Assembly: GCA_016290135.1 (NCBI GenBank)
Contig: JAEESW010000002.1
Coordinates: forward strand, 122,584-186,583
Length of the DNA: 64,000 bases
Direction: 5' to 3'
Source: a bacterium
GTDB lineage: Bacteria > UBP6 > UBA1177
Shown here one piece after another: positions 2,611-53,125 of the stretch. The notes beneath the pieces were generated by a model. It did not search any database. It was not told where the DNA came from and saw nothing but the letters and a program-made list of their open reading frames with translations. Position numbers and translations under genes: made by a program. How positions within the stretch are numbered: position 1 is the first letter of the stretch; each line of letters begins with the position of its first letter.

Positions 2611-2658
2611 CGTTATCCCGTTATCCCGTTATTCCGTTATTCCGTTATCCCGTTATTG
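2611..2658. repeat. Six tandem copies of the octamer CGTTAT(C/T)C between convergent genes
   Basis: Read directly: cgttatcc cgttatcc cgttattc cgttattc cgttatcc cgttattg. It starts 4 nt after the TAA stop of the 145..2607 gene. Confidence 0.8.
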
Positions 2659-21315: not shown

Positions 21316-21321
21316 CCTCCG

Positions 21322-25452: not shown

Positions 25453-25529
25453 TTCTCCTCCAAGTGCAAAAAACAAATTCAGAGGGTTATATTTTTAAAA
25501 AATATTATTTCAAGTGTAAAAAAGAAAAC

Positions 25530-27172: not shown

Positions 27173-29353
27173 TTATATATCGAGTTTAAGCCCGATCCAT
27201 GGCGTGATGCCGGCAGTTCCGTATTCTACAGAATAGGCGTAGTCGTCGTTGTCGAGCATATTTTCGATTTTCGCGAATATTGTCACATAGTTGTTGATCC
27301 TGTATGAGATCGCGAAATTCAGTATGACAAAATCGTCTACAGTTACGATGTAGGGAGTTTTGGGATAGTTGTAGACCTCGTCCTTTCTTTCGCCGACATA
27401 GTCGACCTCAAGAGAAATATTCAGTTTTTTGTCATAGTTATAGTTGAGTATCGCATTGAACGAGTGTTCCGGTCTTCTCAAAGTAGGAGTTTTCGCCTTG
27501 TATTTCTTTCCTTTGTATTCGACCACTTTGTATTCCTGCATTTTGAAGATCCACGTGTATGAGCTGCGGAGACTGAGCCCCCAGAAAGGTTTTGTGTGGA
27601 GCGACACTTCGAGCCCGTGGTTCTCTATCCTGTATCTGTTTGAATATATTCCGCTTTTGTCGAGATCAATGTGGTTGTGCTTCTGTTCGTAGAAGTATCC
27701 TGCCTCAAGAAGGATCTTTCTGCCGGCAAAATACTGCTGCACAGCCCCGTCGAATCCGTATGCAGTCTCAGGTTTAAGTTCCTGGTAAAGGTTTGCGTAG
27801 CGGCTGAAGCGCTGAAAAAGAGTCGGTGTCTTGGCTCCTCTAGCGAATCTTGCCTTGAATCCGAGTTCTATTGGTGTCTCGTAGACCGCTCCGACCGAAA
27901 AAGTCGGCTCTATGTTCTTCTTCGTCTCGTTCGGGAGCGCAAGATCACTCTCTTTGTCGAGAAGGGAAAGCTGGTAAAAATTGTTCTGCAGGCGTCCGCC
28001 GATATTCAGTTCCAGTTTGTCCAGCGGTCTGAAGATGTTGAAAAGGTAGGCATCCAGGCTGATATCGGGATTGGGAACAAAATCCATGTTGAAGTATCTC
28101 CCTGCCGAATAATCCTCGTAATCCGCCGTTCCCCATTCAGTGCCGAGATCGACCCCTGTCACAAGTTCATACCACGCGGCCGGCACAACGCTGTTTTTCC
28201 AGTTCAAAGCGAAAGTCAGCGATCTGTAGCGGCTTTTCAAGTCTCCGGCCATTTTTCCTTTGTCAGCAGGGTCATCGTCTCTGAGAGAGCTCAAAAGAAG
28301 CGAGACATCAAACTTCAAGTTCCAGATTTTATTAAACAAATTCGATTCCGTCCCTGTTTTGAAAAGTAAAGATTCATTACGCAGCATCCTGTTAGGATCG
28401 TCCATACCGAGCCCGGGGCCGTCGTCGATATCCGCCTTGCCGATGTTGCCGCGGATTATCATTTCCCATGTATTTTCGCTGTCGATATCGACTCCGCCGC
28501 GGAAATAGACCGAACCTTTGATGACCGGATCGTTGTCGGGCCTCTTCGTATAGAGATTTTCCTTCACATCTTTGTATGAATCGGCCATCGATATACCCTT
28601 TGTGTAGAAGAAAGATCCGCCGCCCGAATAGTAAAAGCGTTTTTCGGAACCGCTCAAGTTCGCGCTCGCATTGACCGTGTCCGGAATGTAGCGGCTGTTG
28701 CTCATGTCGAGCACGGCTGTTGAGGCGGAAGCTGTGAATTTAGGTCTCCCGTGTCCCTTTTTTGTTCTGATGTCGAGCACTCCGGCAAGAGCGCCGCTAC
28801 CGTAAAGAACAGGCTGAGGTCCCTTAAAAAGTTCGATCTTCGCAATATTTTCCGGACTCATCGAAAGGTCTGCCGCGCCGTTTGGACTGAGAGGGTTCCG
28901 TATTTCGACGCCGTCTATCAGCACCAGGACATCCGCACTTCTGAAACCGCGGACGAAGAGGAACTGTGACTGCCCTGTCCTGCCGTCACCGTTGACATAG
29001 ACTCCCGGCATCTCCTTCACGGCATCTCCGGTCGTTATAGACTGTTTTTCCTCTATCTCTTTTGAATTGACAGAACTCTGTGCAGCCGTGCCGTCGCTTG
29101 ACGATTTTTTCTTACGCGAACCTTTCACCACGATCCTGTTGTCGTCGCTCTTCGCAGCCTTTTTCACCGTTTCCCCTTCCTGAGGCAAAGAGGCATCCTG
29201 CGGTGAATCCGTGTCTGAGAGCGGAGCCTGGTCTTCCTGCACAGACGACTCATTCTGAAGAGATGTTTCATTAAAAGCATCTGCATTCCGGGCAGAAAGT
29301 GCGCCGGTCAAAGCAGCGGAAATGAAAAGCACAAAAAATAAGAAAGACAACAT
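27173..29353 (-). CDS. TonB-dependent outer-membrane receptor (BtuB-like)
   Basis: Signal peptide, plug domain (VYVNGDGRTGQSQFLFVRGF), 22-strand-barrel-length C-terminus. Immediately downstream of a cobalamin riboswitch. Confidence 0.8.
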   Translation of the reverse strand: MLSFLFFVLFISAALTGALSARNADAFNETSLQNESSVQEDQAPLSDTDSPQDASLPQEGETVKKAAKSDDNRIVVKGSRKKKSSSDGTAAQSSVNSKEIEEKQSITTGDAVKEMPGVYVNGDGRTGQSQFLFVRGFRSADVLVLIDGVEIRNPLSPNGAADLSMSPENIAKIELFKGPQPVLYGSGALAGVLDIRTKKGHGRPKFTASASTAVLDMSNSRYIPDTVNASANLSGSEKRFYYSGGGSFFYTKGISMADSYKDVKENLYTKRPDNDPVIKGSVYFRGGVDIDSENTWEMIIRGNIGKADIDDGPGLGMDDPNRMLRNESLLFKTGTESNLFNKIWNLKFDVSLLLSSLRDDDPADKGKMAGDLKSRYRSLTFALNWKNSVVPAAWYELVTGVDLGTEWGTADYEDYSAGRYFNMDFVPNPDISLDAYLFNIFRPLDKLELNIGGRLQNNFYQLSLLDKESDLALPNETKKNIEPTFSVGAVYETPIELGFKARFARGAKTPTLFQRFSRYANLYQELKPETAYGFDGAVQQYFAGRKILLEAGYFYEQKHNHIDLDKSGIYSNRYRIENHGLEVSLHTKPFWGLSLRSSYTWIFKMQEYKVVEYKGKKYKAKTPTLRRPEHSFNAILNYNYDKKLNISLEVDYVGERKDEVYNYPKTPYIVTVDDFVILNFAISYRINNYVTIFAKIENMLDNDDYAYSVEYGTAGITPWIGLKLDI

Positions 29354-29356
29354 TCC

Positions 29357-29500
29357 CTCCTCGGGGAGTTAATCCGGCCCGAAAACTGCGTATCCGGCTG
29401 AGTCAAAGCCTCACGGTTGCGGGACAGCATCGGATTTTCACCGATTTCCGCAGGATCCGGAGATGCCAACTTAGGCATTGGGTAAAGAAAGTCAATAATT
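29357..29500 (-). ncRNA. Cobalamin (B12) riboswitch in the 5' leader of the TonB-dependent receptor gene
   Basis: Minus-strand read GCGGAAATCGGTGAAAATCCGATGCTGTCCCGCAACCGTGAGG matches the conserved GGTGAAAaTCC...GNCCCGCAACNGT core. The 3' end abuts the GAGGAGGG RBS of the receptor gene. Confidence 0.6.
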
Positions 29501-29592: not shown

Positions 29593-30666
29593 ATGAAAAA
29601 CAAAGTTTATATTGCTGAGATCACAACGATCCTTCCCCATCTTTTCACATCTTCCGAAGTTATAGAGATCCTTTATCCGAAAGATATCGACAACGGCCGT
29701 CCCCATCGGTTTGCAAGGCGTTCGGTCGGCGCCGTAGGGATAACCTACCGTCCGACGATACTTTCAAGAGAGGCTTTCCCGGACAGAGCGCTGGCTACTC
29801 CAGAATACCATCCGCTGGAATGGGGAAAACGCGCGGTGAAAGAACTTCTGAAAAGTGAAAGGATCGCGAAAGAAGATGTCGGTTTTCTTTCGATAGCATA
29901 CAACATCCGCTGTGACAAAGATGTTCTGCCCAGTCTTTCGAGCAAGATAGCCGCGGAATCAGGGCTCGAACTTGACTATCCTCCTCAGGAAATGGCTTAT
30001 CTGGGCTGTGCGGCTGGTCTTTTTTCACTTGAATCTTCGGTAAAATACTGCCGTGAGCACAACAAAGCAGCGATAACATTTCTTTTCGACCAGTGTTCGT
30101 GGATCGCAAATCCGACTTACGATATAGACGATCCCGAATTCAAGGAAAATCTTAAGACCACTCTCCTTTTTGCGGATGGTGCTGCCGGGATCCTGCTGAT
30201 CCCTGAATCAATGAGAGAAAACTTTGATCTTCCTTTGATGGAAGTCGATGAGATCATCACCGATTTTGTTGCAGGCGGCTCGCTTTCGATGCACGAAGGC
30301 AAACTCGTTCTCGAAGACAACCTCAAAGACACGGTCCCCGAAATAGTCCGCGACCGCATAATCAGGCCTTTGGGCGTAACACCGTCCAATATCGACGAAT
30401 GGTCGCTACACCAGGGCGGCATGCCGATCCTGATGCGTTTTACCGAACCTGAGATCCTGGGTTTGAATGAAGAGCAGATAAATCCGTCGAAATCGGTCTT
30501 TGAAAAATACGGGAATTTCAGTTCGCCAAGCGTGATGTTCGTTCTCGAGACTTGGTTCAAAGATGCAGAACGCCCGCTGAAAGACGAAAAGACGAGAGGC
30601 TGCGCGATCTCTTTCGGAGCCGGCTACTTCATGGGCGGAATGACTTATCACTGGTCGAAGAAATAA
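29593..30666 (+). CDS. Thiolase-fold condensing enzyme, type III polyketide synthase / FabH-like
   Basis: Cys-His-Asn triad spacing (C~139 in LGCAAG, H~276 in HQGGMPIL, N~309 in GNFSSPS). The HxGG and GNxSS contexts resemble chalcone/stilbene-synthase-family enzymes. Confidence 0.5.
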   Translation: MKNKVYIAEITTILPHLFTSSEVIEILYPKDIDNGRPHRFARRSVGAVGITYRPTILSREAFPDRALATPEYHPLEWGKRAVKELLKSERIAKEDVGFLSIAYNIRCDKDVLPSLSSKIAAESGLELDYPPQEMAYLGCAAGLFSLESSVKYCREHNKAAITFLFDQCSWIANPTYDIDDPEFKENLKTTLLFADGAAGILLIPESMRENFDLPLMEVDEIITDFVAGGSLSMHEGKLVLEDNLKDTVPEIVRDRIIRPLGVTPSNIDEWSLHQGGMPILMRFTEPEILGLNEEQINPSKSVFEKYGNFSSPSVMFVLETWFKDAERPLKDEKTRGCAISFGAGYFMGGMTYHWSKK

Positions 30667-31412: not shown

Positions 31413-32453
31413 TTATTTGATCTTCTTTGCGGCTCTCTGCTTTATGACGTTTGAAACGTTTCGGCTTTTAGCGATGTTTTTAAGGTCGTTCATCCTTATC
31501 GTTTCAAGGAGCATGAGAGCAGTTTTCATGGGTGTTTTCGGGTTGTTTACGAGGGCGAGTTTGACGGCATAGCTTTTGCTGAGCGACTTGTTGGAAGCAA
31601 TGTAGCTTATCGCATCAAGCGATGATGACGGATCTCCGGCAATAGAAGCGACTTCCTTGTCGGTGATCCTTGCGTTTCCCAAGACCGCCATGACTATCTG
31701 TTTGCGCGGATCTTTGATGAGGATCTTCCTCACTTCAAGATTTCCGAGCATCGCGACCTTTATCTTCTGACCGACATTCATATCGCGCAGTGCTTCCGAA
31801 ATCGTCTTGCGCTGGTCGAGCATGTCATCGGCACTAAGACCTTCAAAAGCGGTCTCTGAAGTCAGGAAATCGGGAAAATCAAAGATCGTGTCTTCAAGTT
31901 CAACGACCTCCTCCTCTTCCTCCTCTTCTGCGGCTTCAGTCTCCACAGGCTTTTCAGGCTGTTCGGGACGGGCAGTCTGACGCTCATCGGAAAAATATGA
32001 AAGCTGTTCTTCGTAAAGAGATTCAATAACTTCGCTGATCGCCGAAAACAACTGCTTGAATTCAGTCATCTGCGGAAGCGTAAACTCTACGAAATCTTTA
32101 TGTGTTACAAGAGTCCTCCAAAAGACAGCATCGTTTGTGGCAAGAAAATCGAGGATCCACTGCCGCTGCAGCTTTCCTGTCGGAAGGAGCGCGATTATGA
32201 GAGAAGAATCCTTTCTTTCGCCTGCAAGTTTCGTCAGAGTTTTGACAGAGTTTTCGGGTATCTCCGGAGAGATCGTCCTTTTTATCTCGTTCGACTGCGT
32301 AAAGCGGAGTTTGTCGAGCGCCGCTTTTTGAACAGCTTCGTCATCATCTCCGCAGAAAAAAACAAGAGCTTTCTGATATTCGACAGCCGTTAAAGGAAGA
32401 AGCCCGTTGATTACCGCCAGTTTTTGCGGGGCGTTTACCGCTTGTCTCCACAT
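31413..32453 (-). CDS. Hypothetical protein with central poly-Glu stretch
   Basis: No signal peptide. EAAEEEEEEEVVELED acidic tract. No recognised domain. Confidence 0.3.
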   Translation of the reverse strand: MWRQAVNAPQKLAVINGLLPLTAVEYQKALVFFCGDDDEAVQKAALDKLRFTQSNEIKRTISPEIPENSVKTLTKLAGERKDSSLIIALLPTGKLQRQWILDFLATNDAVFWRTLVTHKDFVEFTLPQMTEFKQLFSAISEVIESLYEEQLSYFSDERQTARPEQPEKPVETEAAEEEEEEEVVELEDTIFDFPDFLTSETAFEGLSADDMLDQRKTISEALRDMNVGQKIKVAMLGNLEVRKILIKDPRKQIVMAVLGNARITDKEVASIAGDPSSSLDAISYIASNKSLSKSYAVKLALVNNPKTPMKTALMLLETIRMNDLKNIAKSRNVSNVIKQRAAKKIK

Positions 32454-32471: not shown

Positions 32472-34259
32472 TTACAGGTCGACTCTGAGGACATTGGATG
32501 TTTGTCCTGTCGCTCCGAAGTTCGTGGAACTGCCTCCGCCGCTCCCCGGGGTCCCTTTGGCGCATTTCATCGAATTGGAACCGTAAAGCGTACTGTCGGA
32601 AGAGTAGACAACGCATATTGTCGGACCGCCGCCGCCGCCGCCGCCGTCTCCGCCTATGCCGCCAAGACCGCCGTTACCGCCGTAACCGCCGCAACCGCCG
32701 TTGCCTTGTTCGCTTTTACCGCTGTACTGCCCTGCGCTGCCGCCTAAGCCGTAAGTTCCGCCGTTTCCTCCGGTCCCTCCTTTTCCTCCTTTTCCCCCTT
32801 TACCGGTTTCAAAAGAGGGTGATTCCAATATGATATTGGAGGAAGAGATAAGTAAAAGCGGAATGCTTGCACCGCCGCCGGTCCCTCCTTTTCCTCCTTT
32901 TCCGCCGCAGCCGCCTGCACCGCCGCCGCCGCCGCTGCTGCCGTAGCTGTTGCACCAGTCAGTGCCGCCTTTTCCGCCGCCACCGCCGCCGCCGCCCTGG
33001 CCGTTTTCTCCGTCAGCTCCGTCGCCTCCGTCGGACCTTATGTATCCTGCAGCCGAGAATATTCCGTAGCTCTTTCCTCCTTCACCGTCGCCACCGTTTC
33101 CTCCGTTCGCGCCGTTTTTACCGTTGGCTTCTATAGATGAATAAGGAGAACATTCTCCGTTTGTATCAGATACATATTTGACTGATCCGCCGGCTCCGCC
33201 GTTTGTCGATGACCCGACACCGTTTTGCCCGGGATCGCCGTTGTTACTATTTTTTCCTGCATTTCCGCCTTTACCGCCGTTTGCTCCGCATGTCGAAGTG
33301 CCGCCGGCAGCCCCCGAAGGTATAGGGTCACAATGATGCACGCAAAATAAAGCTGTGGATTCTTCGCACCCCTGGATACCATTTCCGCCGTTACCGCCGT
33401 TTGCTCCGTTTTCTCCGTTATCGCCGTCAATGCCGTCAGAACCGTCTGCAGTGACTATCTCTATATGGCTGAGGGTAATATCCTTGCACTTGTTCAGTAT
33501 CAGTCCGACCGAACTTCCTGAGGGATTGGGGTCGCCCGTCGCCGCTATCTTGATCTTCGAAAGAGTGATCCTCTGAAGAGAATTGAGTTTCCATCCCGAT
33601 GCCGGAGCGTGTATGACAGGAAGTTCCTCGCTTTCCGCCCAGATCCCGTTGTTGTTGCTGTAACCGCCGTAGATCGAGACACCGCTTTTCAGCGTAGGCA
33701 CATTGTCGAAAACGCCCCATGCGATAACTATCAGATTCCTTTCAAGCGCATTCGAAAGCTGGATCGCCTTGTCTATCGTCTTTACCGGAGCAGTCATCGT
33801 GCCGTTGTTGGAATCGTCGCCGTTGTATTTGTCCACATATACAGCTGTGCCGAGATCGGGTTCCAGATCCGGGATCTCCTCCCAGTCTTCATCGTCTTCC
33901 ATGTCGCCGTCGCTATCGGAAGTATCACCGTCGCCGTCCGGTGCAGTATCGGGGTCGTCATCTCCTGCCGGATCGGTATCGTCTGTCTGAGAATCAGTAT
34001 CTCTGTCGGTAGTATCTGTGTCGGTATCTGCATCATCCTTTTCCGTATCGCCGTCGTCACGGTCTTCTGTGTCGCCGTCGCTTTCTTCCGTATCTGCATC
34101 AGTCGTTTCTTCATCTTTGTCCGATACAGGCTCTTTATCGTCGTCGGATTGTCCCGAACTTCCTTCATCGTCGGGATAGTCGTAGATATCGCTGTTGCCG
34201 CCGCTGCACGCGACCAAAATGGCGAATATGAAAATCGCGAGAATTTTCATCGTTTTCAT
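32472..34259 (-). CDS. Lipoprotein with Asp/Thr-rich N-terminal region and long glycine-rich (GGxGG) low-complexity repeats
   Basis: Lipobox ILVACSGG. DTD/TDT acidic repeats. Repeated GGNGGNG / GGKGGKGG / G8-9 tracts. Confidence 0.4.
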   Translation of the reverse strand: MKTMKILAIFIFAILVACSGGNSDIYDYPDDEGSSGQSDDDKEPVSDKDEETTDADTEESDGDTEDRDDGDTEKDDADTDTDTTDRDTDSQTDDTDPAGDDDPDTAPDGDGDTSDSDGDMEDDEDWEEIPDLEPDLGTAVYVDKYNGDDSNNGTMTAPVKTIDKAIQLSNALERNLIVIAWGVFDNVPTLKSGVSIYGGYSNNNGIWAESEELPVIHAPASGWKLNSLQRITLSKIKIAATGDPNPSGSSVGLILNKCKDITLSHIEIVTADGSDGIDGDNGENGANGGNGGNGIQGCEESTALFCVHHCDPIPSGAAGGTSTCGANGGKGGNAGKNSNNGDPGQNGVGSSTNGGAGGSVKYVSDTNGECSPYSSIEANGKNGANGGNGGDGEGGKSYGIFSAAGYIRSDGGDGADGENGQGGGGGGGGKGGTDWCNSYGSSGGGGGAGGCGGKGGKGGTGGGASIPLLLISSSNIILESPSFETGKGGKGGKGGTGGNGGTYGLGGSAGQYSGKSEQGNGGCGGYGGNGGLGGIGGDGGGGGGGPTICVVYSSDSTLYGSNSMKCAKGTPGSGGGSSTNFGATGQTSNVLRVDL

Positions 34260-34270
34260 TTATATCTCCG

Positions 34271-36649
34271 TTAAAAAACTGTTATCGAACATCCTTTGCT
34301 TTTCTTTGCAGGTTTGTTTTCGTCAGTATCCTCAGTTTCTTCGGCATTAGTTTCATCTTCAGGCACGAAATCGTCGTCGGAAACCACGTCGTCGTCATCA
34401 AAAACCACGTCGCCGGATTCAGGTTCTTCCTCTTCATTTTCATAATAATAGACAGGCAGCTGCACAGTGCCTGAAGCACCTGTCAAAGTTGTGTATCTGA
34501 GATATAAATCAGACAGCCCCGGACCGCCGTAGTAATCTGCAAAACTGCTCCCGGAAGCAAAATCGTACGGTTCGGAATGAGTATGGTACTTAGCCTGCCA
34601 GATGAGAGAGAGAAACTTGTCCGCATTCAGGACTTTAGCGCTTGCCGGAATACCTTCTGAAATAACAGTGGTGTATTCGACTTCCGGAACAGGAACTTCG
34701 CCTTCTGTGATCTGCGAGATCGTCACATAATCGGTGAATTTCGTGAAATTCCTGTTGTAAAAGGCATCGAAAGCACTTCCGGCAGGAATTTTTCCCTTTA
34801 CGATTATGATAACTTTCGATTGGTCGGCTGAAGCGGCAGCATCGACTATCTTGAAGTTTTCGTTGTCAAGCTGATAGCCGTACTGCGTAACGGGCATGAC
34901 GAAACGCAGCGTCACATCCTCTTCTGTCGGCAGATAGTTTACGATTTCGGCGGTTACTTTTATTGCCGTGCCGTCGCCTCCTGCAAAAATCGACTCTTTG
35001 TTTTCAGAGCCGTGCTGCCAAGAATAGCTGACCCATAAGTTGCCTGCCGGGACTGACTGCATTCCGCGGTTGCTCTTGTTGATCCCGCAGTTTTCGTATC
35101 TTTCACAGGAGTAGTTGTATGAAACCTCGTCATCCGACATCTCGACTCTTCTGAAACCCCAGTAGTCGCCGCTTCCGCTCGTCGCCATTGTTGTCGTCAT
35201 GATGAATTCCATTTTTTCCGGCGCAATGACTCCGGTGTTCGGAATAAGTTCGTCGCCTTTTTCGAAGGTGAAGACTTTGTCGTGGTGAGTGTGACCGGAG
35301 AAATATATCGGCGGAATTTCCTTCTGTGCAATGAATGAAGTGAGCGAAACACCGTTGTTCGATGTCTGTGTTTCATTGAATACCCCGTCGAATACGTCGC
35401 TGTCCCATGCCGACGAGTCGAAGTTCCATTCCTGATCGTCGATTACGCTTACGATGCCGTAGATCTTAGAGAACGATCTGTTCGCATGGTATTTTCCCGT
35501 CCCGTCCTGACCGAGCGGCGTCATGTGACCGAAAACAGCCGCGACATCGTAGTCTTCAAGAATTGTCTGAGCCCAGTTCAGGGTCTTTTCAGCAAGATAA
35601 CCACCCCAGTTCGCCACAGGAGAAGCAGCTGTGTCACCGATTCCGATCTGGTTGCTTGCACGTCTCTGAGGAGTTCCGTCGTATGTGTTGAGCAGAAGGT
35701 AGGTCCTGTTTCTGAAGTTGAATGCGTTGTTCATCGGCCCCAGAAACTTTGCCCAATATTCAAGACCGTCCGATTCGAGAGGCGAGGTCAGATCATCAAC
35801 TTTTGTAAACTGAGCGTATCCGTCGTGGTTGCCGGGGATCGAGAACATCGGAATTTCAAGTTTTGTCATCATGTCGTAAAAGTCGGAGTATTCCTGCTGG
35901 TAGTTTATTCCGTAGGCGATGTCACCGAGCATGATCGAAAAGTTTGTGTCCGCCGAATTCAAATGTGAAAACGTCGCTTTTATGATCCCGAACTGCTGGT
36001 CGTAGTTGAGCAGCGAGTTTTTGGCATAGAACGGATAATTTTCCGGGTTGAAATTCATGTCGTCTGTCTTTTTGCTTAGAAGATCCTCGATCTGAGGGTC
36101 TGCAACGATGAGGAATTTCGCCGGGTCGCTTTCTTCGTAATGAGGAAAGAAAAGGGCGTTTCGAGAGATCATCTCTTCGCCGTCCGTCATTTTTAAAGCG
36201 ATATCGTATTTGGCTTCCGGAAGCAGAATATTGGTGCACACAGAGAGTTTGACAATGTTTTCGCCGATTTTTTCAAGATAGTTAAAATTGGGATTACTGT
36301 AATCAAAACTGTAGCGGGAAATATTAAGGAATTCTGTTCTTCCGCTGTCGTCAAGGCGGATTATTTTCACATATTCGAAAGGCTGGTTTCCATTGTATCT
36401 GAAAATGACTGAAAAGCACGGTTCATCCGGTGTTACTATTGCCGGAAAGCCGATTACTGGATACAGTATTCCGTTTATCGCGGGGTCGAGAATCGCTTTC
36501 GTCTGCATCTGGAACTGATAGTCTTCAAAAACATTAGAATTCTGCGGAAACCGGTTTATCGAAACCATTGATTCTTTAGGCTCTTCGGCGATCAGCGTTG
36601 AACCGAGCAAAAATAAAAGGAAAAAAAGAGCGGTTTTTAATTTTTGCAT
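34271..36649 (-). CDS. Secreted calcineurin-like metallophosphoesterase, large paralog A, ending ...KSKGCSITVF
   Basis: Start at MQKLKTALFF (GGAGGA upstream), signal peptide. Phosphoesterase motifs GDIAYG and GNHDG. C-terminal acidic linker plus GC tail. Confidence 0.55.
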   Translation of the reverse strand: MQKLKTALFFLLFLLGSTLIAEEPKESMVSINRFPQNSNVFEDYQFQMQTKAILDPAINGILYPVIGFPAIVTPDEPCFSVIFRYNGNQPFEYVKIIRLDDSGRTEFLNISRYSFDYSNPNFNYLEKIGENIVKLSVCTNILLPEAKYDIALKMTDGEEMISRNALFFPHYEESDPAKFLIVADPQIEDLLSKKTDDMNFNPENYPFYAKNSLLNYDQQFGIIKATFSHLNSADTNFSIMLGDIAYGINYQQEYSDFYDMMTKLEIPMFSIPGNHDGYAQFTKVDDLTSPLESDGLEYWAKFLGPMNNAFNFRNRTYLLLNTYDGTPQRRASNQIGIGDTAASPVANWGGYLAEKTLNWAQTILEDYDVAAVFGHMTPLGQDGTGKYHANRSFSKIYGIVSVIDDQEWNFDSSAWDSDVFDGVFNETQTSNNGVSLTSFIAQKEIPPIYFSGHTHHDKVFTFEKGDELIPNTGVIAPEKMEFIMTTTMATSGSGDYWGFRRVEMSDDEVSYNYSCERYENCGINKSNRGMQSVPAGNLWVSYSWQHGSENKESIFAGGDGTAIKVTAEIVNYLPTEEDVTLRFVMPVTQYGYQLDNENFKIVDAAASADQSKVIIIVKGKIPAGSAFDAFYNRNFTKFTDYVTISQITEGEVPVPEVEYTTVISEGIPASAKVLNADKFLSLIWQAKYHTHSEPYDFASGSSFADYYGGPGLSDLYLRYTTLTGASGTVQLPVYYYENEEEEPESGDVVFDDDDVVSDDDFVPEDETNAEETEDTDENKPAKKSKGCSITVF

Positions 36650-36739
36650 AGTTTCCTCCAAACAAAAGACCGCTTATTTTAATGGAAAAATAAATATAGT
36701 CAATTGTTGGGGTGTTGCGTGTGTCCAGATTTTTTTTGA

Positions 36740-39001
36740 TTACATAACCATTGTCGAGCAGCCTGAACCGCTTTTTTTGCCGGAACCCGAATCCGTACCG
36801 AGATCGTCTTTGTCATCAGAATTGTGATCGCCGGAATCTGTGTCTGTACCGCTATCGTGATCACCGGAACCGGTGTCCGTGCCGTCATCGTCATCGTACC
36901 AGTCGTCACAGCAGCCGTTGTCATAATTTTCTTCGATTTTTGTAGTGAATTCGAGTTTTCCCGAAATCCCGTCGGGGGTCGTGTATCTGAGATTGTAATT
37001 GCTTGAAAATGTTTTCTGCACGATATCGTCCAGAACGATCTCTTCCCCGCCGGCAAAGTCAAAGAGTTGCGGATCCGAGTTCATATATTGGATTTTTACC
37101 TGCCAGATCAGTGATGAAAATTTAAAAGCATTTCTGACCCATAAGTTGTGGACCATCATTTCTGCGACATCTATTTTTTCGGGAAAATCGACAAGAGGAA
37201 TCGGAATTTCTTTCGTATCTGACGGTGAAATCGTCACATAATCGGTGAATTTTGTGAAATTTTTTTCGTAAAAGTCATCAAGAGCGCTTCCGGCCGGTAT
37301 CTTTCCCTTAACGGTCAAAAATACAGTCGAAAGGTCGCCTGAAGCGACTGCATCGGCGAATGTGAAATTCGGGTTGTCGAGTTTATATCCGTATTTTGCA
37401 GCCGGCATGATGAAGCGCAGCGTTACTTCTTCATCGGTCGGCAGCCAGTTCACGATTTCGGCTGTCACGCTTTCTGATGATCCGTCTCCTCCGCTGAAGA
37501 GCGATTCTTTTTCACCTGATCCGCTTTCCCACGAATATTTCACCCACATATTTCCTGCCGGAACCGACTGCATACCGCGTTTTTCAGGGTCGTCAGGCTG
37601 ACAGTTTTCGTATCTTCCGCAGGTGTAGTTGTAAGAAACATCGTTGTATAAAAATTCGGCATTTGAATTTTCTACGCTGATAACTTCGACTTTTCTGAAA
37701 CCCCGGTAGCCCTTTCCGCTTCCCGAGAGAGGTGCCGTGGAGACAAATTCCATCTTTTTGTTTGCAAAGATCCCGCTGTTTTCAACGAGTTCGCTTCCCG
37801 GATCGAACACAGAAACAGAGTCCTGCCGGTCGTGACCTGAAAAATAGACGGGCGGATAGTTTTTATTGGTCAGGATTTTCAGAAATTCTCTTCCGGTTTC
37901 TGATGAGTGCGTTTTGCCGGTCGGTGCAAAATGACCGAAAACCGCGGCGTATTCATAGTTTGAAACGCCTTCAAGCCACTCCAGAGTCTCTGGCTGAAGT
38001 TCGAATCCGGAACTCTCTTCAGAAGCGCGTTTCTGTGCCGTTCCTTCGCTCGTATTGAGCAGAAGATATATTCTTCCGAGCAGGAATGCGTTGTTGGTAG
38101 GACCGATAAACTTCGACCAGTATTCGAGCCCGTCAAATTCTGGAAGAGATGTTGTTCCTCCGTCGTTTGAAGCGAAACGGGTGAGGAGGTCACGCTCGCC
38201 GGGAACCGCAAACATCGGAATTTCCAAATTGAGTGCGAGATCATAAAAGCCGCGGTATTCATTCTGAAAATCAATTCCGCTGACTGCGTTGCCGAGCATT
38301 ACCGCAAAATGGCTGTCGCCGGCATTGAACTGTGAAAAAGCCGCATCAACTATTCCCTTTTGAGGATCTCCGTTTTGACACGGATATTCGCCTGAATTGA
38401 AGTCTAAATCTTCGCTTTGATCGTTTCCGTCTGTCCGAGGACTCGAAAAAACGATGAATTTTGCCGGATCTCTGTATTTGTATTGAGGAAAGAAAACGGC
38501 GTTGCGCGAAATCATCTCCTTTTCGCCTCGAATTTTCAAAGCGATATCGTATCCTGCTTCGGGCAGTTTGACTGGCACGGATATTCCCAGAATCCAGGTG
38601 TCCGGTCCGATCCTGTCAACATACTGATAAAAGTTCTCATAGTGGGTATAGGCAGGATGGAGCGTCAGAAATTCGCTCCTTCCGTTTTCGTCATTCCGGA
38701 AGATTTTTACATATTCGACTTCATAAACTGAAAAATGGACGTCGTGTTCAAGCCTGAAAATAACGGAAAGCGAAGTGTTGTCTGCTACCATCGACGGAAA
38801 ACCGATGACAGGGTATAAAATGCCGTTTATCGGATAATCGTGAATCCCGGCTGTCTGCATCGTCTGTTGGTAGTCTTCAATTGTAAACCGTTCCCCGTAT
38901 TTCTGAGAACTGCGGTTTATCGACAGCATCGATTCGCCGTAAACTTGAAGTGTCAAAAATGATAAAAACAGCAGAAAAAGGAGAAAAAATCGTTTGATCA
39001 T
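36740..39001 (-). CDS. Secreted calcineurin-like metallophosphoesterase, paralog B, ending ...SGCSTMVM
   Basis: Start at MIKRFF (GGAGAG upstream). Collinear similarity to the upstream paralog (SINR...INGILYPVIGFP, GNHD-type motifs). Acidic TD/SGD linker then GC tail. Confidence 0.55.
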   Translation of the reverse strand: MIKRFFLLFLLFLSFLTLQVYGESMLSINRSSQKYGERFTIEDYQQTMQTAGIHDYPINGILYPVIGFPSMVADNTSLSVIFRLEHDVHFSVYEVEYVKIFRNDENGRSEFLTLHPAYTHYENFYQYVDRIGPDTWILGISVPVKLPEAGYDIALKIRGEKEMISRNAVFFPQYKYRDPAKFIVFSSPRTDGNDQSEDLDFNSGEYPCQNGDPQKGIVDAAFSQFNAGDSHFAVMLGNAVSGIDFQNEYRGFYDLALNLEIPMFAVPGERDLLTRFASNDGGTTSLPEFDGLEYWSKFIGPTNNAFLLGRIYLLLNTSEGTAQKRASEESSGFELQPETLEWLEGVSNYEYAAVFGHFAPTGKTHSSETGREFLKILTNKNYPPVYFSGHDRQDSVSVFDPGSELVENSGIFANKKMEFVSTAPLSGSGKGYRGFRKVEVISVENSNAEFLYNDVSYNYTCGRYENCQPDDPEKRGMQSVPAGNMWVKYSWESGSGEKESLFSGGDGSSESVTAEIVNWLPTDEEVTLRFIMPAAKYGYKLDNPNFTFADAVASGDLSTVFLTVKGKIPAGSALDDFYEKNFTKFTDYVTISPSDTKEIPIPLVDFPEKIDVAEMMVHNLWVRNAFKFSSLIWQVKIQYMNSDPQLFDFAGGEEIVLDDIVQKTFSSNYNLRYTTPDGISGKLEFTTKIEENYDNGCCDDWYDDDDGTDTGSGDHDSGTDTDSGDHNSDDKDDLGTDSGSGKKSGSGCSTMVM

Positions 39002-39083
39002 AACTCTCTCCATTCACAAATGGTTTAATATTTTACAGTGAGAAATATTTCTGTCAATTCAGCCGCCGTTTCCAAAAAAAATC

Positions 39084-39112
39084 TTGACAAATAAAGAGTT
39101 TTTCACTATAAA
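39084..39112 (+). promoter_or_regulatory. Sigma70-like promoter TTGACA-17-TATAAA upstream of tRNA-Gln and the L25-pth operon
   Basis: Hexamers read directly, about 57 bp before the tRNA 5' end. Confidence 0.5.
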
Positions 39113-39168
39113 CTGCGACCGATTTTTTCGGGGTGTTCTTTAATAAGAAGAGTTTTACTAACAGGCTT

Positions 39169-39243
39169 TGGGGCATCGTCAAGCGGTAAGACACCAGATT
39201 TTGGTTCTGGCATCCGGAGGTTCGAATCCTTCTGCCCCAGCCA
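39169..39243 (+). tRNA. tRNA-Gln (anticodon UUG), CCA encoded
   Basis: Folded by hand. Acceptor stem TGGGGCA/TGCCCCA, anticodon stem CCAGA/TCTGG with loop TTTTGGT (U33, anticodon TTG). T-arm GGAGG-TTCGAAT-CCTTC. Discriminator G followed by CCA. Confidence 0.8.
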
Positions 39244-39269
39244 TTGATAATTTGTATGTGGAGGAAATT

Positions 39270-39833
39270 ATGGAAACTTTTAAGCTCGCAGTCGAAAAAA
39301 GAGAACAGGGCAAAAAAAGTGTAAAAGCGGTAAGAAACAACGGATTTGTTCCGGTCGAAATCTATGGTAAAGGTCTCGAAAGCAATATCAGCGGTTCTGT
39401 TGAGAGAAAAGAGCTTATCAAAGGACTTCACACTCCGCAGGGAAAGAATGTTATTTTCAGCCTTGATTATGAAGGAAAATCCTACCTCGCGATCGCTCAC
39501 GAACTTCAGATCCATCCGGTAAAGGACAACATCATCCATGTTGACTTCATGACCGTTTCTGAAGACAAAGAGATCACCATCGTCGTTCCTGTCACGAAAC
39601 AGGGAAGATCGAAAGGCGAGATCGCCGGCGGAAAAATTTTCCAGGTCGTCAAGGAAGTTAAAGTTGCCTGCAAACCGGCTGACGTTCCGGCTGAGATAGT
39701 TGTCGATGTTACGAACAATGAGATCGGCGACAGGATCAAACTTTCGACCCTTCCTTATCCGCAGGGCGTAAGACCCGTTTTCAACCAGGATGCTCCGGTT
39801 ATCGTTATCAACAAGGGAAGAGGCGGCGAATAA
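39270..39833 (+). CDS. 50S ribosomal protein L25 / general stress protein Ctc
   Basis: Start at METFKLAVEKREQGKK with GGAGGA RBS. L25 N-terminal domain plus Ctc-type C-terminal extension. Confidence 0.8.
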   Translation: METFKLAVEKREQGKKSVKAVRNNGFVPVEIYGKGLESNISGSVERKELIKGLHTPQGKNVIFSLDYEGKSYLAIAHELQIHPVKDNIIHVDFMTVSEDKEITIVVPVTKQGRSKGEIAGGKIFQVVKEVKVACKPADVPAEIVVDVTNNEIGDRIKLSTLPYPQGVRPVFNQDAPVIVINKGRGGE

Positions 39834-39851
39834 CCGCTTCCGGTCGTCATT

Positions 39852-40463
39852 TTGTGGTTTCATTTTTTCTCAAAAAAACCTCTTAGTGAAGATGTTCTGA
39901 TAGCTGGTCTCGGCAACCCTGAAAAACGCTATCTTACTACGCGCCACAATATCGGGTTCATGTTTGTCGAAAGCATAGCTTCATCTTTTGGATTCGGCGA
40001 GTTCGAATTTTCGAAAAAGGTGAACGGCTTTCTTGCAAAAGGAAAGATCGGTGACAAAAATGTCATTCTGCTCAAACCTTCGACCTATATGAACAATTCC
40101 GGGAAAGCGCTCAAGGCAGCCAAAAAACTTTTCAGCATAAAGCCCGAAAACGTAATGATAGCCCACGACGACATGGATATCGCTTTCGGCTCACAGAGGA
40201 TCAGAAAAAACGGAAGTTCAGCCGGTCACAACGGTATAAAATCGATAATTACCGAGCTTAAGACCCCCGATTTTACAAGGATAAAACTCGGAATAGGAAG
40301 GCCTATGCCCGGAACAGACATCGCAGAATATGTCCTTTCGGAATTTTCAGAAGAAGAACTTGAAGCCGTCTCCGAAAACCGCGGAAAATGGGCTGAGATA
40401 GCAAAAACTATCGTTTCCGAAAGTGTTGAAACGGCAATGAACGCTTTCAACAGGAAAAATTAG
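39852..40463 (+). CDS. pth: Peptidyl-tRNA hydrolase
   Basis: LIAGLGNPEKRYLTTRHNIGF matches the Pth N-terminal catalytic motif. The annotated TTG start may be slightly too far upstream. Confidence 0.75.
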   Translation: MWFHFFSKKPLSEDVLIAGLGNPEKRYLTTRHNIGFMFVESIASSFGFGEFEFSKKVNGFLAKGKIGDKNVILLKPSTYMNNSGKALKAAKKLFSIKPENVMIAHDDMDIAFGSQRIRKNGSSAGHNGIKSIITELKTPDFTRIKLGIGRPMPGTDIAEYVLSEFSEEELEAVSENRGKWAEIAKTIVSESVETAMNAFNRKN

Positions 40464-45413: not shown

Positions 45414-46274
45414 ATGAAAAAACTTATTTCTTTAACGATCGCACTTTTGACATGTATGCTTTCATTCAATCTGCTTGCAGAATGCACCGGCATCTCTTTT
45501 GATCCGGCTATGTCATTCGGTGAGGCTTACGATGACTACGGCAATGTTACCGGTTATTACCCCAGCAATCTTGAATCGTATGATCTGTCAGGATTCACCA
45601 GTGAAGATCAAGCCGGAATACTTTCCTTTGAATTCTATCCGGAAGATCTTGAAAACGGCAAATGGACTGAGGCTGCTGCAGTCGGAACCTACAATCTTGG
45701 CGCAGGAAACAACACCAACTATTCATCCTGCAACCAGTGCGTAAGAATGTATCACTTTGTTCACAACCCCAATGCAGCTTCAGAAGATGAAGAATGGAAT
45801 AATGACAAACAGTTCTTCCAGCAGGAAGGAACATTGCAGATATTGCACACTGATTTTGTGGCAAATGACCACTACTATTATCACGGGCTTCTTTCCGTCA
45901 AACTTGCCGAAGCCACCGTCGATACATCGACTTGGGTATCTTCATTTGTCGAAGGCGGCGACTGCTACGAAATAGAAAGTGGAGCATGGACAACTTATCC
46001 GGAAGGCACAGAACCGACAGACGATACGACGACCGATCCGACGACTGAGCCGACAACGGATCCGACAACCGATCCGACGACCGATCCGACGACTGAGCCG
46101 ACGACTGAGCCGACGACCGATCCGACGACTGAGCCGACGACCGAGCCGACGACTGAGCCGACTGACAACAGCGACACGGAAGTTCCCGCTGACACCGACG
46201 AGACTCCTGCTGACGACAGTTCGACCCCGGCAGACGAGGAAGATGATGGCGGCTGTGCACTTGTAACGATATAA
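45414..46274 (+). CDS. Secreted protein with YSSCxQC-containing N-terminal domain, Thr/Pro-rich TDPTTEPTT linker and ...DDGGCALVTI tail
   Basis: Signal peptide MKKLISLTIALLTCMLSFNLLA. Coding repeat (TDPTT/TEPTT)n at 46009..46165. GC + 5-residue C-terminus. Confidence 0.5.
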   Translation: MKKLISLTIALLTCMLSFNLLAECTGISFDPAMSFGEAYDDYGNVTGYYPSNLESYDLSGFTSEDQAGILSFEFYPEDLENGKWTEAAAVGTYNLGAGNNTNYSSCNQCVRMYHFVHNPNAASEDEEWNNDKQFFQQEGTLQILHTDFVANDHYYYHGLLSVKLAEATVDTSTWVSSFVEGGDCYEIESGAWTTYPEGTEPTDDTTTDPTTEPTTDPTTDPTTDPTTEPTTEPTTDPTTEPTTEPTTEPTDNSDTEVPADTDETPADDSSTPADEEDDGGCALVTI

Positions 46275-52501: not shown

Positions 52502-53124
52502 ACTTTCCCCCAGTTATAGTAATTCACAAAGAATGACGCACCGAAAAATCCGAACAGATCAAGCGAATTGTCATGCGGAGACCACTTGTAAAGCACCTGT
52601 GCCGAGAGTATTATCCACTCCCATACTCTGAACTGGAGATCGAACCCGGCCGCGATGACGCCGTTTACGCAAGCATAGTCATCCTTTCTGTAACTCGCGA
52701 CTTTCAGACCTCCTTCCGCAATAAATTCGATATTTGAAAATGTTTCGACTTTGAATCCTCCTCCTGCAACGATATGCGGCGAGAAAAAAGTCCCCGGAAA
52801 GAGATTGTATCTTGCAAGGACGAGCGTCTGGACCCGCCAGTAATCAAAGTATTCTTTTCCTTTTATATCCTGAAATTCCGCTTTCCTCGAAGTGTCCCCC
52901 ACCCGCGTGAATGAAGGCTGCAGACCGATGTCGAAGTTGTCGGTGAGACCAAAAAACATATTGAGACCGGCATTCCAGCTTGCATATACGACAGTGGTCT
53001 TATTGTCCGTTTTAAGCGAAAAAGGAAAAAAACCGCCGCCGCCTATATTTACCTGGAGCTCCCCTTCTTCTGCGGGAAGAGCAAAAGAAAACATAAATAA
53101 GATCAGAACTATGACTTTTTTCAT
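52498..53124 (-). CDS. Outer-membrane beta-barrel protein (OmpW/OMP_b-brl-like)
   Basis: Start at MKKVIVLILF with signal peptide. Alternating amphipathic strands; aromatic-rich C-terminus. Confidence 0.4.
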   Translation of the reverse strand: MKKVIVLILFMFSFALPAEEGELQVNIGGGGFFPFSLKTDNKTTVVYASWNAGLNMFFGLTDNFDIGLQPSFTRVGDTSRKAEFQDIKGKEYFDYWRVQTLVLARYNLFPGTFFSPHIVAGGGFKVETFSNIEFIAEGGLKVASYRKDDYACVNGVIAAGFDLQFRVWEWIILSAQVLYKWSPHDNSLDLFGFFGASFFVNYYNWGKV

Positions 53125-53125
53125 G

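What the first reader, a model, noticed from the sequence alone, without database searches (positions are those of the whole stretch)
34271..39013. Tandem paralogous secreted metallophosphoesterases that both end in acidic linker + Gly-Cys + 5 hydrophobic residues (…KSKGCSITVF / …SGCSTMVM)
Two 750-800-aa signal-peptide proteins share collinear sequence and calcineurin-type motifs (GDxxY, GNHD). Each terminates with a Asp/Thr/Gly-rich acidic linker, one or two Lys, then G-C-(S/A)-x-hydrophobic-hydrophobic-hydrophobic and the stop codon. The same tail occurs on two unrelated secreted proteins elsewhere in the window (17691..18563 …KSDGCSMLFI and 45414..46274 …DDGGCALVTI). Five residues after the Cys is too short for a PEP-CTERM, MYXO-CTERM or LPXTG-type membrane anchor. 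It looks more like a CaaX-like or Cys-lipidation/processing signal, and may be an undescribed C-terminal sorting motif.
Basis: seen in the sequence. Interest (0 to 1): 0.75.

Follow-up and report, generated by a model that had tools for sequence, protein, structure and literature searches.

The report
Short cysteine tail tags exported proteins
Exported proteins of an uncultured rumen bacterium (candidate phylum UBP6) end in a highly conserved tag, a floppy acidic stalk followed by Gly-Cys and 4-5 oily residues, that looks like a stripped-down myxobacterial MYXO-CTERM surface-anchoring signal and probably tethers them to a membrane by their C-terminus.

Summary
Four ORFs in the window (three unrelated families) end in G-C-x5-stop after an acidic linker; about 0.06 are expected.

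The tail is conserved much more strongly than the proteins that carry it. Across 119 sequences of the 290-aa family, identity to the window protein is 97% in the tail, 51% in the body and 33% in the linker. Codons vary synonymously, so selection acts on the peptide.

In the window plus related genomes the tail sits on at least 8 unrelated families, including a phosphoesterase, a GH18 chitinase, a CAP domain and a beta-propeller. A metagenome scan recovered 56 more ORFs with it.

There are two forms: G-C-S-x-ΦΦΦ and G-C-G-C-S-ΦΦΦ. GCGC is the published MYXO-CTERM signature. Distant Myxococcota homologues of the phosphoesterase carry the full MYXO-CTERM (Cys motif, transmembrane helix, Arg cluster). 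The short tail lacks the helix and the Arg cluster and matches no NCBIfam model.

Stop-codon readthrough and a DNA-level element are excluded.

My best reading is a minimal, CaaX-like version of a Cys-based C-terminal anchoring signal: Cys lipidation, possibly followed by clipping. The chemistry and the enzyme are not shown, and no CPBP protease lies nearby.

The second paralogue has lost the metallophosphoesterase motifs. I rate this a new variant of a known kind, not described in the literature I could search.

The parts
34271..36661 (-). Exported calcineurin-type metallophosphoesterase, paralogue 1 (796 aa from the TTG; likely start is the ATG 4 codons in). It has a signal peptide, an N-terminal beta-sandwich, a phosphoesterase core with intact motifs, C-terminal beta-sandwich domains, and then the linker and tail.
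   Evidence: ORF. Pfam PF00149 E 1.5e-8. AF2 model pLDDT 81.7, folded over residues 30-744. Best PDB fold match is purple acid phosphatase 3zk4.
34295..34429 (-). Acidic disordered linker ending in a basic patch (EEPESGDVVFDDDD...DENKPAKKSK) of paralogue 1.
   Evidence: Translation. pLDDT 27-37 for residues 745-796. Linker sequence is highly variable among orthologues.
34274..34294 (-). C-terminal tail G-C-S-I-T-V-F of paralogue 1; the stop codon is at 34271-34273.
   Evidence: The Cys is invariant across the 22-sequence alignment (C791). Homologues down to about 36% identity keep such a tail, apart from a few truncated entries.
36740..39013 (-). Paralogue 2 (757 aa). Same fold family, 44% identical to paralogue 1, but the metal-binding motifs are lost, so it is probably a non-catalytic partner.
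   Evidence: BLASTP alignment with the substitutions. Pfam Metallophos is below threshold. The tandem pair is conserved in L004, L005, L009 and L017.
36764..36925 (-). Asp/Gly/Thr/Ser-rich acidic linker with a basic patch (..GSGKKSGS) of paralogue 2.
36743..36763 (-). C-terminal tail G-C-S-T-M-V-M of paralogue 2.
   Evidence: Orthologues end ..KKSGSGCSTMVL..CSLQFL or ..CSLLFV.
17691..18563 (-). Unrelated 290-aa Cys-rich exported protein with an acidic linker and the tail G-C-S-M-L-F-I (tail 17694..17714).
   Evidence: All 120 listed homologues carry the tail. Identity to the window protein is 0.97 in the tail, 0.51 in the body and 0.33 in the linker.
45414..46274 (+). Unrelated 286-aa exported protein: a widespread about 110-aa domain, a Pro/Thr/Asp/Glu repeat linker (45999..46250) and the tail G-C-A-L-V-T-I (46251..46271).
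   Evidence: Tandem repeat in the linker DNA. Of 150 representative homologues, 15 carry an acidic linker plus a short Cys tail and 135 lack it.
32472..34259 (-). Gene immediately downstream of paralogue 1: an N-terminal lipoprotein (signal peptide ...ILVAC|SGG) whose lipidated Cys is followed by the same kind of long Asp/Glu/Thr linker. It is the mirror image of the tail architecture.
   Evidence: In most rumen-lineage loci it starts 3-4 codons after the phosphoesterase stop, with a GAGGA ribosome-binding site in that gap in many of them.
63312..64000 (+). Partial gene running off the window: an N-terminal lipoprotein (..FFFVSC|GSDDD), a (Asp-Thr)n linker, and a domain related to that of the 45414..46274 tail protein.
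   Evidence: BLASTP 34% identity over 53 aa, E 1e-6.

Best explanation
The tail is a lineage-wide C-terminal sorting and anchoring tag for Sec-exported proteins of candidate phylum UBP6 ('Ca. Asafiota') and relatives.

Anatomy:
- an N-terminal cleavable signal peptide;
- a folded passenger;
- a 40-80-residue disordered acidic stalk;
- a short basic patch (usually 1-3 Lys/Arg);
- then G-C-S-x-ΦΦΦ-COOH or G-C-G-C-S-ΦΦΦ-COOH.

It is the counterpart of the signature motif of MYXO-CTERM (the 'GC_trans_RRR' type), but it has no transmembrane helix and no Arg cluster.

Proposed mechanism, inferred by analogy and not shown here:
1. After Sec export, the basic patch and the short hydrophobic end dock the C-terminus on the periplasmic face of a membrane.
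2. The invariant Cys thiol is lipidated, by Lgt or an Lgt-like transferase as proposed for MYXO-CTERM.
3. The last 4-5 residues may then be clipped, as Rce1/CPBP proteases clip CaaX and MYXO-CTERM.
4. The enzyme is left tethered by its C-terminus on a long acidic stalk, probably at the cell surface.

The tandem genes at 34271..39013 are one client pair: an active phosphoesterase and a catalytically degenerate paralogue. They are co-transcribed with an N-terminally lipidated partner protein.
For: Shown here:
1. Strong positional enrichment of GC at -5 to -7 from the C-terminus. Four clients lie in the window against 0.057 expected.
2. The tail is under much stronger purifying selection than the rest of the protein: 0.97 versus 0.51 for the body and 0.33 for the linker across 119 sequences. 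Cys and Gly are invariant or nearly so in the phosphoesterase family. Among 180 distinct tails, Gly precedes the first Cys in 177, Ser follows the last Cys in 155, and 178 have 4 or 5 residues after it.
3. Selection is on the peptide. Codons vary synonymously: TGC/TGT, GGC/GGA/GGT/GGG, TCG/TCA/TCT/AGC.
4. The tag is modular. It occurs on at least 8 unrelated families, including CAP, GH18 chitinase with PPC, and beta-propeller proteins. Homologues of the 45414 domain mostly lack it (135 of 150).
5. By a crude N-terminal heuristic, tail proteins have plain signal peptides rather than lipoboxes (36 versus 1, with 12 unclassified), while non-tail exported proteins split 74 versus 39.
6. Link to MYXO-CTERM. 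The sister form of the tail is GCGC, the published MYXO-CTERM signature (bioRxiv 10.1101/2023.06.07.544157; PMC11980579). Distant Myxococcota homologues of the same phosphoesterase end in GC(G)C, a TM helix and RRRR. They hit the MYXO-CTERM models: TIGR03382 at 18.4 bits against a cutoff of 15.85, and TIGR03901 at 19.6 against 20.
7. The linker and tail are disordered (pLDDT 27-37).
8. Mirror-image anchoring. A classical lipoprotein next door, and a second lipoprotein sharing the domain of a tail protein, carry the same acidic linker directly after their N-terminal lipid-Cys.
9. Other lineages put a plain TM anchor at the C-terminus of the same phosphoesterase family (P0083 and P0085).

From the literature: MrtX cleaves MYXO-CTERM in a Cys-dependent way, also in E. 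coli, and Lgt is the leading candidate lipid transferase (PMC11980579).
Against: - No lipidation, cleavage or localisation data exist for any of these proteins.
- No CPBP/Rce1-type protease was found in the 64-kb window, in its 10-kb flanks, or among the multi-pass membrane ORFs checked next to tail genes in about 530 kb of related genome loci and 39 metagenome loci. Only membrane ORFs were screened, by motif plus Pfam on the candidates. One-to-many sorting enzymes are usually not adjacent to their clients, so this is weak evidence.
- Without a stop-transfer helix the protein is not held at the inner membrane, so the published MYXO-CTERM pathway cannot apply unchanged.
- The residues before the Cys do not form a canonical lipobox: there is no Leu at -3 and no preceding hydrophobic region.
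- Whole-genome counts and phylogenetic profiling could not be done with these tools.
Confidence: 0.55

Rival explanations
1. The tail is a recognition or secretion signal rather than a lipid anchor. Its free hydrophobic C-terminus would be read by a PDZ-domain periplasmic protease or chaperone (Prc/Ctp/DegP type), or by an outer-membrane export machine. The protein would then be released or processed, not tethered.
For: The last three residues are almost always hydrophobic with a free carboxylate (F, I, L or V at the end in 174 of 180 tails), which is the kind of ligand PDZ domains bind (established knowledge). Type II secretion / type IV pilus components occur in related loci (T2SSE ATPase in L027, pseudopilins in L026).
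Against: It does not explain the near-invariant Gly-Cys (177 of 180 Gly, Cys always) or the GCGC variant shared with a Cys-dependent anchoring signal. Nor does it explain the long stalk-like linker, which in neighbouring proteins sits next to a known lipid anchor.
Confidence: 0.15
2. The Cys is not lipidated. Instead it forms a disulfide or other covalent bond with a partner protein or with itself, for example pairing the two paralogues, and the hydrophobic residues give weak peripheral membrane or partner binding.
For: There is a single conserved Cys at the end of a flexible arm. The two paralogues are always adjacent and both are tagged. The 290-aa client is itself Cys-rich, which suggests extracytoplasmic disulfide chemistry.
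Against: The same tail sits on many unrelated single proteins with no obvious paired partner. The constant spacing to the C-terminus and the hydrophobic end are not needed for a disulfide. The organisms are rumen and sludge anaerobes.
Confidence: 0.12
3. Artefact. The true protein continues through the stop codon (recoding) into a normal TM helix plus Arg cluster, or the conservation reflects a DNA element (terminator or ribosome-binding site) rather than a peptide.
For: Hydrophobic codons are T-rich, and the downstream gene's ribosome-binding site follows the stop closely in many loci.
Against: All three stop codons are used (TAG 26, TAA 18, TGA 5). Downstream in-frame sequence has further stops or is the next gene, and never encodes a TM helix plus Arg cluster. 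Tail codons show abundant synonymous variation with the amino acids conserved. Tails occur in many different downstream contexts.
Confidence: 0.02

Closest known systems
MYXO-CTERM (NCBIfam TIGR03901 / TIGR03382 'GC_trans_RRR') processed by myxosortase MrtX, a CPBP/Rce1-family intramembrane protease
   Same: It sits at the extreme C-terminus of Sec-exported proteins after a disordered linker. It has an invariant Cys in a GC or GCGC motif and is shared by many unrelated proteins. Homologues of the same phosphoesterase in Myxococcota carry the full signal.
   Different: There is no transmembrane helix and no Arg cluster; only 4-5 residues follow the last Cys. It has no HMM match. It occurs in UBP6-type uncultured bacteria rather than Myxococcota. 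No cognate protease was identified. It cannot be held in the inner membrane by stop-transfer.
Eukaryotic CaaX box (prenylation, Rce1/Ste24 cleavage, methylation), in particular K-Ras4B with a polybasic stretch before CVIM (recalled from memory, not tested here)
   Same: A Cys a few residues from the C-terminus is followed by aliphatic residues and preceded by Lys residues. The enzyme family that clips CaaX (Rce1/CPBP) is the one that clips the related MYXO-CTERM (PMC11980579).
   Different: Four or five residues follow the Cys, not three. Gly-Cys-Ser is conserved. The proteins carry signal peptides, so the motif acts outside the cytoplasm, where CaaX prenyltransferases do not operate.
Bacterial N-terminal lipoprotein lipobox (Lgt / LspA pathway)
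   Same: A small residue (Gly) precedes an invariant Cys beside a hydrophobic segment. In this genome the same acidic linkers flank both the N-terminal lipid-Cys of lipoproteins and the C-terminal Cys tail. Lgt is the published candidate for lipidating MYXO-CTERM.
   Different: Opposite end of the protein and inverted order (Cys first, then hydrophobic). The hydrophobic stretch is 3-4 residues rather than a helix. There is no Leu at -3.
Other Cys-containing tripartite signals (JDVT-CTERM, Synerg-CTERM, CGP-CTERM) and GlyGly-CTERM / rhombosortase
   Same: They are small C-terminal tags, specific to a lineage, on many unrelated exported proteins.
   Different: All are tripartite, with a membrane-spanning segment and basic residues. 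None matched the tails.

Membership tests
MYXO-CTERM sorting domain (TIGR03901/TIGR03382) | Short signature motif with an invariant Cys (generic GCGC) at the C-terminal end of proteins that have N-terminal signal peptides | tested here: met
   GC or GCGC in all 180 distinct tails, with Gly before the first Cys in 177. Signal peptides present.
MYXO-CTERM sorting domain (TIGR03901/TIGR03382) | A hydrophobic transmembrane helix directly after the motif | tested here: not met
   Only 4-5 residues follow the last Cys. No readthrough into a helix. Tripartite tails were found only in the Myxococcota loci.
MYXO-CTERM sorting domain (TIGR03901/TIGR03382) | An Arg-rich cluster at the very end | tested here: not met
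   Tails end in F, I, L or V. The basic residues lie before the Cys instead.
MYXO-CTERM sorting domain (TIGR03901/TIGR03382) | Match to the curated HMM at or above its cutoff | tested here: not met
   Three short tails gave no hit to any NCBIfam model at E<=10. Myxococcota homologue tails scored 18.4 (cutoff 15.85) and 19.6 (cutoff 20).
MYXO-CTERM sorting domain (TIGR03901/TIGR03382) | Shared by many proteins with no other similarity; homologues elsewhere lack it or carry another signal | tested here: met
   At least 8 unrelated families. 135 of 150 homologues of one client lack it. Other phosphoesterase homologues carry MYXO-CTERM or a plain TM anchor.
MYXO-CTERM sorting domain (TIGR03901/TIGR03382) | A cognate CPBP-family myxosortase in the same genome, with Cys-dependent cleavage | not testable with these tools
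   Whole genomes could not be read. None was found in the window, its flanks or the membrane ORFs checked next to tail genes.
CaaX box | Cys exactly four residues from the C-terminus of a cytosolic protein, prenylated by a cytosolic transferase | tested here: not met
   The Cys is at -5 or -6, and the proteins carry Sec signal peptides.
Lgt/LspA lipoprotein lipobox | [LVI][ASTVI][GAS]C at the end of an N-terminal signal peptide | tested here: not met
   The motif is C-terminal and preceded by K/S/D/G residues. Only the G-C pair matches.
Calcineurin-like metallophosphoesterase (Pfam PF00149) | Match above the gathering score, with the metal-binding motifs (GDxx, GNH[DE], GH, GHxH) present | tested here: met
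   Paralogue 1 (34271..36661): 35.7 bits against 21.5, motifs GDIAY, GNHD, GHM and GHTH present. Fold match to purple acid phosphatase.
Calcineurin-like metallophosphoesterase (Pfam PF00149) | The same, for paralogue 2 (36740..39013) | tested here: not met
   16.3 bits, below the 21.5 cutoff. GD to GN, GNHD to GERD, GHTH to GHDR, and the first-motif Asp to Ser. It is homologous in fold but probably inactive.

The most novel reading that the evidence does not exclude
Diderm bacteria of candidate phylum UBP6 and relatives use an extracytoplasmic, CaaX-like minimal box (basic patch, then G-C-(G-C)-S-Φ3-4-COOH) as a general C-terminal lipid-anchoring signal that needs no transmembrane helix. This would mean that the Cys-lipidating enzyme, and any CPBP-type protease, recognise little more than 'GC plus a few hydrophobic residues'. 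It would be a previously undescribed class of prokaryotic protein-sorting signal, and the simplest natural substrate for working out the unknown lipidation step of the MYXO-CTERM pathway.
Probability: 0.4. Interest if true: 0.85.

Novelty: new variant of a known kind. Interest (0 to 1): 0.66.

Why it matters
- All prokaryotic C-terminal sorting signals catalogued so far (LPXTG, PEP-CTERM, GlyGly-CTERM, PGF-CTERM, MYXO-CTERM and its Cys-containing relatives) are described as tripartite: motif, membrane helix, basic cluster. A natural signal that keeps only the Cys motif and a 4-5-residue hydrophobic stub challenges the view that the helix is needed for recognition.
- The step that modifies the Cys in MYXO-CTERM is still unidentified (PMC11980579). 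A 7-8-residue tag that can be fused to reporters and tested in E. coli, with or without Lgt depletion and with or without a CPBP protease, makes that question directly testable.
- It also gives an annotation rule for surface-exposed enzymes (phosphoesterases, chitinases, CAP proteins) in an uncultured phylum found in rumen and anaerobic digesters.
- It could serve as a very short C-terminal surface-display tag.

Tried and rejected
- Stop-codon readthrough or recoding into a hidden TM helix plus Arg cluster. Rejected: mixed stop codons, and no such sequence downstream.
- Conservation caused by a terminator or ribosome-binding site. Rejected: synonymous codon variation.
- Match to any curated sorting-signal model. 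None, whether for full-length proteins or isolated tails.
- Database search with a tail profile. A 42-aa profile returned a single fragment. The tail is too short and compositionally biased for HMM searching, and one capped search was lost.
- Search for a neighbouring CPBP/Rce1-type protease. I used Pfam on window genes and on multi-pass membrane proteins of related loci, a motif screen (EExxxR / FxxxH / HxxxN) on membrane ORFs, and the Pfam-annotated flanks of the source contig. None was found.
  - A recurrent 192-aa six-TM neighbour looks like a ChrA-type chromate transporter by sequence (FGGGYAM-like motif; not scanned with Pfam).
  - An M48 (HtpX-type) protease lay near a tail gene in only one metagenome locus.
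- Lgt lies within 10 kb of the phosphoesterase in two loci (L006, L026) but not in the window or the other loci. I treat this as coincidence.
- Mutual exclusion of the tail and an N-terminal lipobox. It holds as a strong trend but not absolutely: L023 12403..14136 has both. The heuristic is crude.
- The source genome (NCBI GCA_016648615.1, contig of 165,191 bp) could not be read beyond gene tables.
Full report
**What is there**

The finding covers two adjacent minus-strand genes, 36740..39013 (757 aa) and 34271..36661 (796 aa).
- Both begin with a signal peptide.
- Both end with an acidic, low-complexity linker, a short basic patch, and then GCSTMVM or GCSITVF before the stop.
- They are 44% identical and collinear.

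Two unrelated ORFs elsewhere in the window have the same ending: 17691..18563 (..KSDGCSMLFI) and 45414..46274 (..DDGGCALVTI). So the coordinates and the description are correct.

One part of the description is not. Only the 796-aa protein is a bona fide calcineurin-type phosphoesterase (Pfam PF00149, E 1.5e-8). Its predicted fold resembles purple acid phosphatase. The 757-aa paralogue has replaced the metal-binding motifs (GDIAY to GNAVS, GNHD to GERD, GHTHH to GHDRQ, and the first-motif Asp to Ser) and falls below the Pfam threshold. It is probably a non-catalytic partner.

**Is it more than chance?**

I pooled 462 ORFs from the window and 37 related genome loci. The dipeptide Gly-Cys has its Cys at positions -5, -6 or -7 from the C-terminus 17, 27 and 22 times. 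At every other position from -1 to -15 the count is 0-2. With that background, 0.057 such ORFs are expected in the window and four are seen (P about 5e-7, or about 3e-5 if the paralogues count once).

**Conservation**

- Phosphoesterase family: 93 database homologues were found. Those down to about 36% identity, apart from a few truncated entries, keep a short Cys tail while the linker before it changes freely. The Cys is invariant in a 22-sequence alignment.
- 290-aa protein: all 120 listed homologues end ..KEESKSDGCSMLFI. Identity to the window protein is 0.97 over the last 14 residues, 0.51 for the body and 0.33 for the linker.
- Codons: the tail codons vary synonymously (TGC/TGT; GGC/GGA/GGT/GGG; TCG/TCA/TCT/AGC), so the peptide is what is selected, not a DNA or RNA element.
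- Stop codons: all three are used, and the in-frame sequence after them never encodes a helix plus Arg cluster. In most rumen-lineage loci the next gene starts three or four codons later. Readthrough is therefore excluded.

**A modular tag**

In the window and related loci the tail sits on at least eight unrelated families. These include a CAP-domain protein, a GH18 chitinase with a PPC domain, and beta-propeller / delta-60-repeat proteins.

The N-terminal domain of the 45414..46274 protein is widespread. Of 150 representative homologues, 135 stop right after the domain and 15 add an acidic linker plus a short Cys tail.

A DNA-pattern scan of metagenomes for GCGC-[SA]-Φ-Φ-F-stop returned 120 loci. 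In them, 56 ORFs end in an acidic linker plus this tail, mostly from sludge and digester samples.

Over 180 distinct tails:
- Gly precedes the first Cys in 177.
- Ser follows the last Cys in 155.
- 178 have four residues (GCGC form) or five residues (GC form) after the last Cys.
- The final residue is F, I, L or V in 174.
- One to three Lys/Arg lie just upstream in most.

The AF2 model of the 796-aa protein is confident for residues 30-744 and disordered (pLDDT 27-37) for residues 745-796.

**Whose genome**

The window is part of a 165-kb contig of NCBI assembly GCA_016648615.1. The closest loci are rumen MAGs named 'bacterium UBP6_UBA1196/UBA1177', plus RUG/RGIG MAGs. More distant ones are labelled Ca. 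Sumerlaeota or Spirochaetales, or are unnamed GC-rich MAGs.

UBP6 has been renamed 'Ca. Asafiota': 32 genomes, 28.6-60.8% GC, from rumen, sludge and hypersaline sediment (PMC11382960). The organism is diderm, since the window encodes a TonB-dependent receptor and a Poly_export protein.

**Link to a known system**

The GC-rich relatives use G-C-G-C-S-ΦΦΦ, and GCGC is the published generic signature of MYXO-CTERM.

The most distant homologues of the phosphoesterase come from Myxococcota. They end in GC(G)C, a transmembrane helix and RRRR. Their isolated tails score on the MYXO-CTERM models: TIGR03382 at 18.4 bits against a cutoff of 15.85, and TIGR03901 at 19.6 against 20. The short tails hit nothing at E<=10.

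Other members of the family carry a plain C-terminal TM anchor (P0083 and P0085). So the C-terminus of this enzyme family is a place where different lineages put a membrane anchor. The UBP6 version keeps the Cys motif of one such anchor and drops the helix and the Arg cluster.

**Mirror-image evidence for anchoring**

The gene immediately downstream of the phosphoesterase, 32472..34259, is a classical lipoprotein (..ILVAC|SGG). Its lipid-Cys is followed by more than 100 residues of the same Asp/Glu/Thr linker.

At the window end, 63312..>64000 encodes another lipoprotein (..FVSC|GSDDD) with a (DT)n linker. It is followed by a domain related to that of the tail protein 45414..46274 (34% over 53 aa, E 1e-6).

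The same kind of stalk therefore sits next to a known lipidated Cys at the N-terminus, or next to the conserved Cys at the C-terminus. By a crude heuristic, tail proteins almost never also have a lipobox (1 of 37, against 39 of 113 other exported proteins).

**Mechanism: what is shown and what is inferred**

Shown: this is a conserved, modular C-terminal tag on exported proteins, with an invariant Gly-Cys and a hydrophobic end, on a disordered stalk. It is related in motif and in client family to MYXO-CTERM.

Inferred: the Cys is lipidated on the periplasmic side, and the last 4-5 residues may be clipped, leaving a C-terminally tethered surface enzyme. The inference rests on the working model for MYXO-CTERM, in which lipidation (possibly by Lgt) is followed by Cys-dependent cleavage by the Rce1-type protease MrtX, which also works in E. 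coli (PMC11980579).

The resemblance to CaaX, and to the K-Ras4B polybasic-CaaX end, is recalled from memory and is an analogy only. The Cys is at -5/-6 rather than -4, and the proteins are exported.

I could not identify a processing enzyme. No CPBP protease lies in the window, its flanks, or among the membrane ORFs checked next to tail genes in related or metagenomic loci. This is expected for one-to-many sorting enzymes, but it leaves the key step open.

**Rivals**

- A PDZ- or secretion-recognition signal would explain the hydrophobic free C-terminus but not the invariant Gly-Cys or the GCGC form.
- A disulfide tether would explain the Cys but not the fixed distance to the end or the hydrophobic residues.
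- Artefact explanations are excluded.

**Novelty**

Neither the papers on Cys-containing sorting signals nor broader literature searches describe a form without the helix and basic cluster. NCBIfam release 20 has no model that matches it. Absence from this library is not proof.

I rate it a new variant of a known kind (Cys-based C-terminal sorting signals). It is of real interest to people working on protein sorting, because it suggests the recognised element is tiny, and it offers a simple substrate for finding the missing lipidation enzyme.

Noticed in passing
window 36740..39013 (-): The upstream phosphoesterase paralogue has lost at least four catalytic-motif residues yet is conserved in tandem with the active copy in several rumen MAGs (L004, L005, L009, L017). 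This suggests a pseudoenzyme partner.
   Followed up: partly
window 63312..64000 (+), repeat DNA 63414..63607: Partial lipoprotein gene whose linker is a 24-bp tandem repeat encoding (Asp-Thr)n. The minus-strand 'CQCQ...' ORF at 63421..63780 is a shadow of this repeat.
   Followed up: partly
window 52498..59673 (-): A type IV secretion / conjugation-like gene block. It has a VirB4/TraG-type ATPase (56740..59085), a six-TM protein, small membrane proteins and several exported proteins without Pfam hits. A 1621-aa lipoprotein (47636..52501) lies downstream of it (lower coordinates); a LexA/S24-type repressor gene lies upstream, just beyond the block.
   Followed up: no
window 29390..29449 (-): A cobalamin riboswitch aptamer (partial match, 32.6 bits against a gathering score of 31.5) directly upstream of the TonB-dependent receptor gene 27173..29353. 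This suggests a B12-regulated corrinoid uptake receptor.
   Followed up: no
window 145..2607, 18703..25476, 29593..30666, 61529..63055: Scattered lipid / polyketide-type genes. They comprise an AMP-binding-ACP-acyltransferase fusion, a lysophospholipid-type acyltransferase, a KS-like protein, an O-methyltransferase, a 1384-aa BcrAD/BadFG-type activase fusion, a type III PKS-like enzyme and an aromatic amino-acid ammonia-lyase. This may be an aryl-lipid pathway. The acyltransferase gene abuts the tail protein 17691..18563.
   Followed up: no
window 31413..32453 (-): A 346-aa protein with no Pfam hit is conserved directly after the phosphoesterase-lipoprotein pair in L001 and L006. It may be part of the same operon.
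   Followed up: no
L006 20553..21407; L026 6116..7030: Prolipoprotein diacylglyceryl transferase (Lgt) genes lie within 10 kb of the tail-bearing phosphoesterase in two unrelated loci. In L026 they sit beside pseudopilin genes. This is probably coincidence, but Lgt is the published candidate for lipidating MYXO-CTERM.
   Followed up: partly
L021 4924..17316 (also L023, L027, L029): In the GC-rich relatives, tail-bearing genes cluster: five in 13 kb in L021 (CAP protein, delta-60 repeat protein, phosphoesterase, beta-propeller protein, GH18 chitinase). The cluster is preceded by DUF4349 proteins.
   Followed up: partly
window 2611..2657: The octamer CGTTATCC is repeated about 6 times in the gap between the convergent genes 145..2607 and 2668..3870.
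   Followed up: no
window 39054..39863 (-) versus 39169..39243 (+): The 269-aa minus-strand ORF overlaps tRNA-Gln (39169..39243) and a plus-strand ORF (39168..39833) that looks like ribosomal protein L25 by eye. The minus-strand ORF is therefore almost certainly spurious.
   Followed up: no
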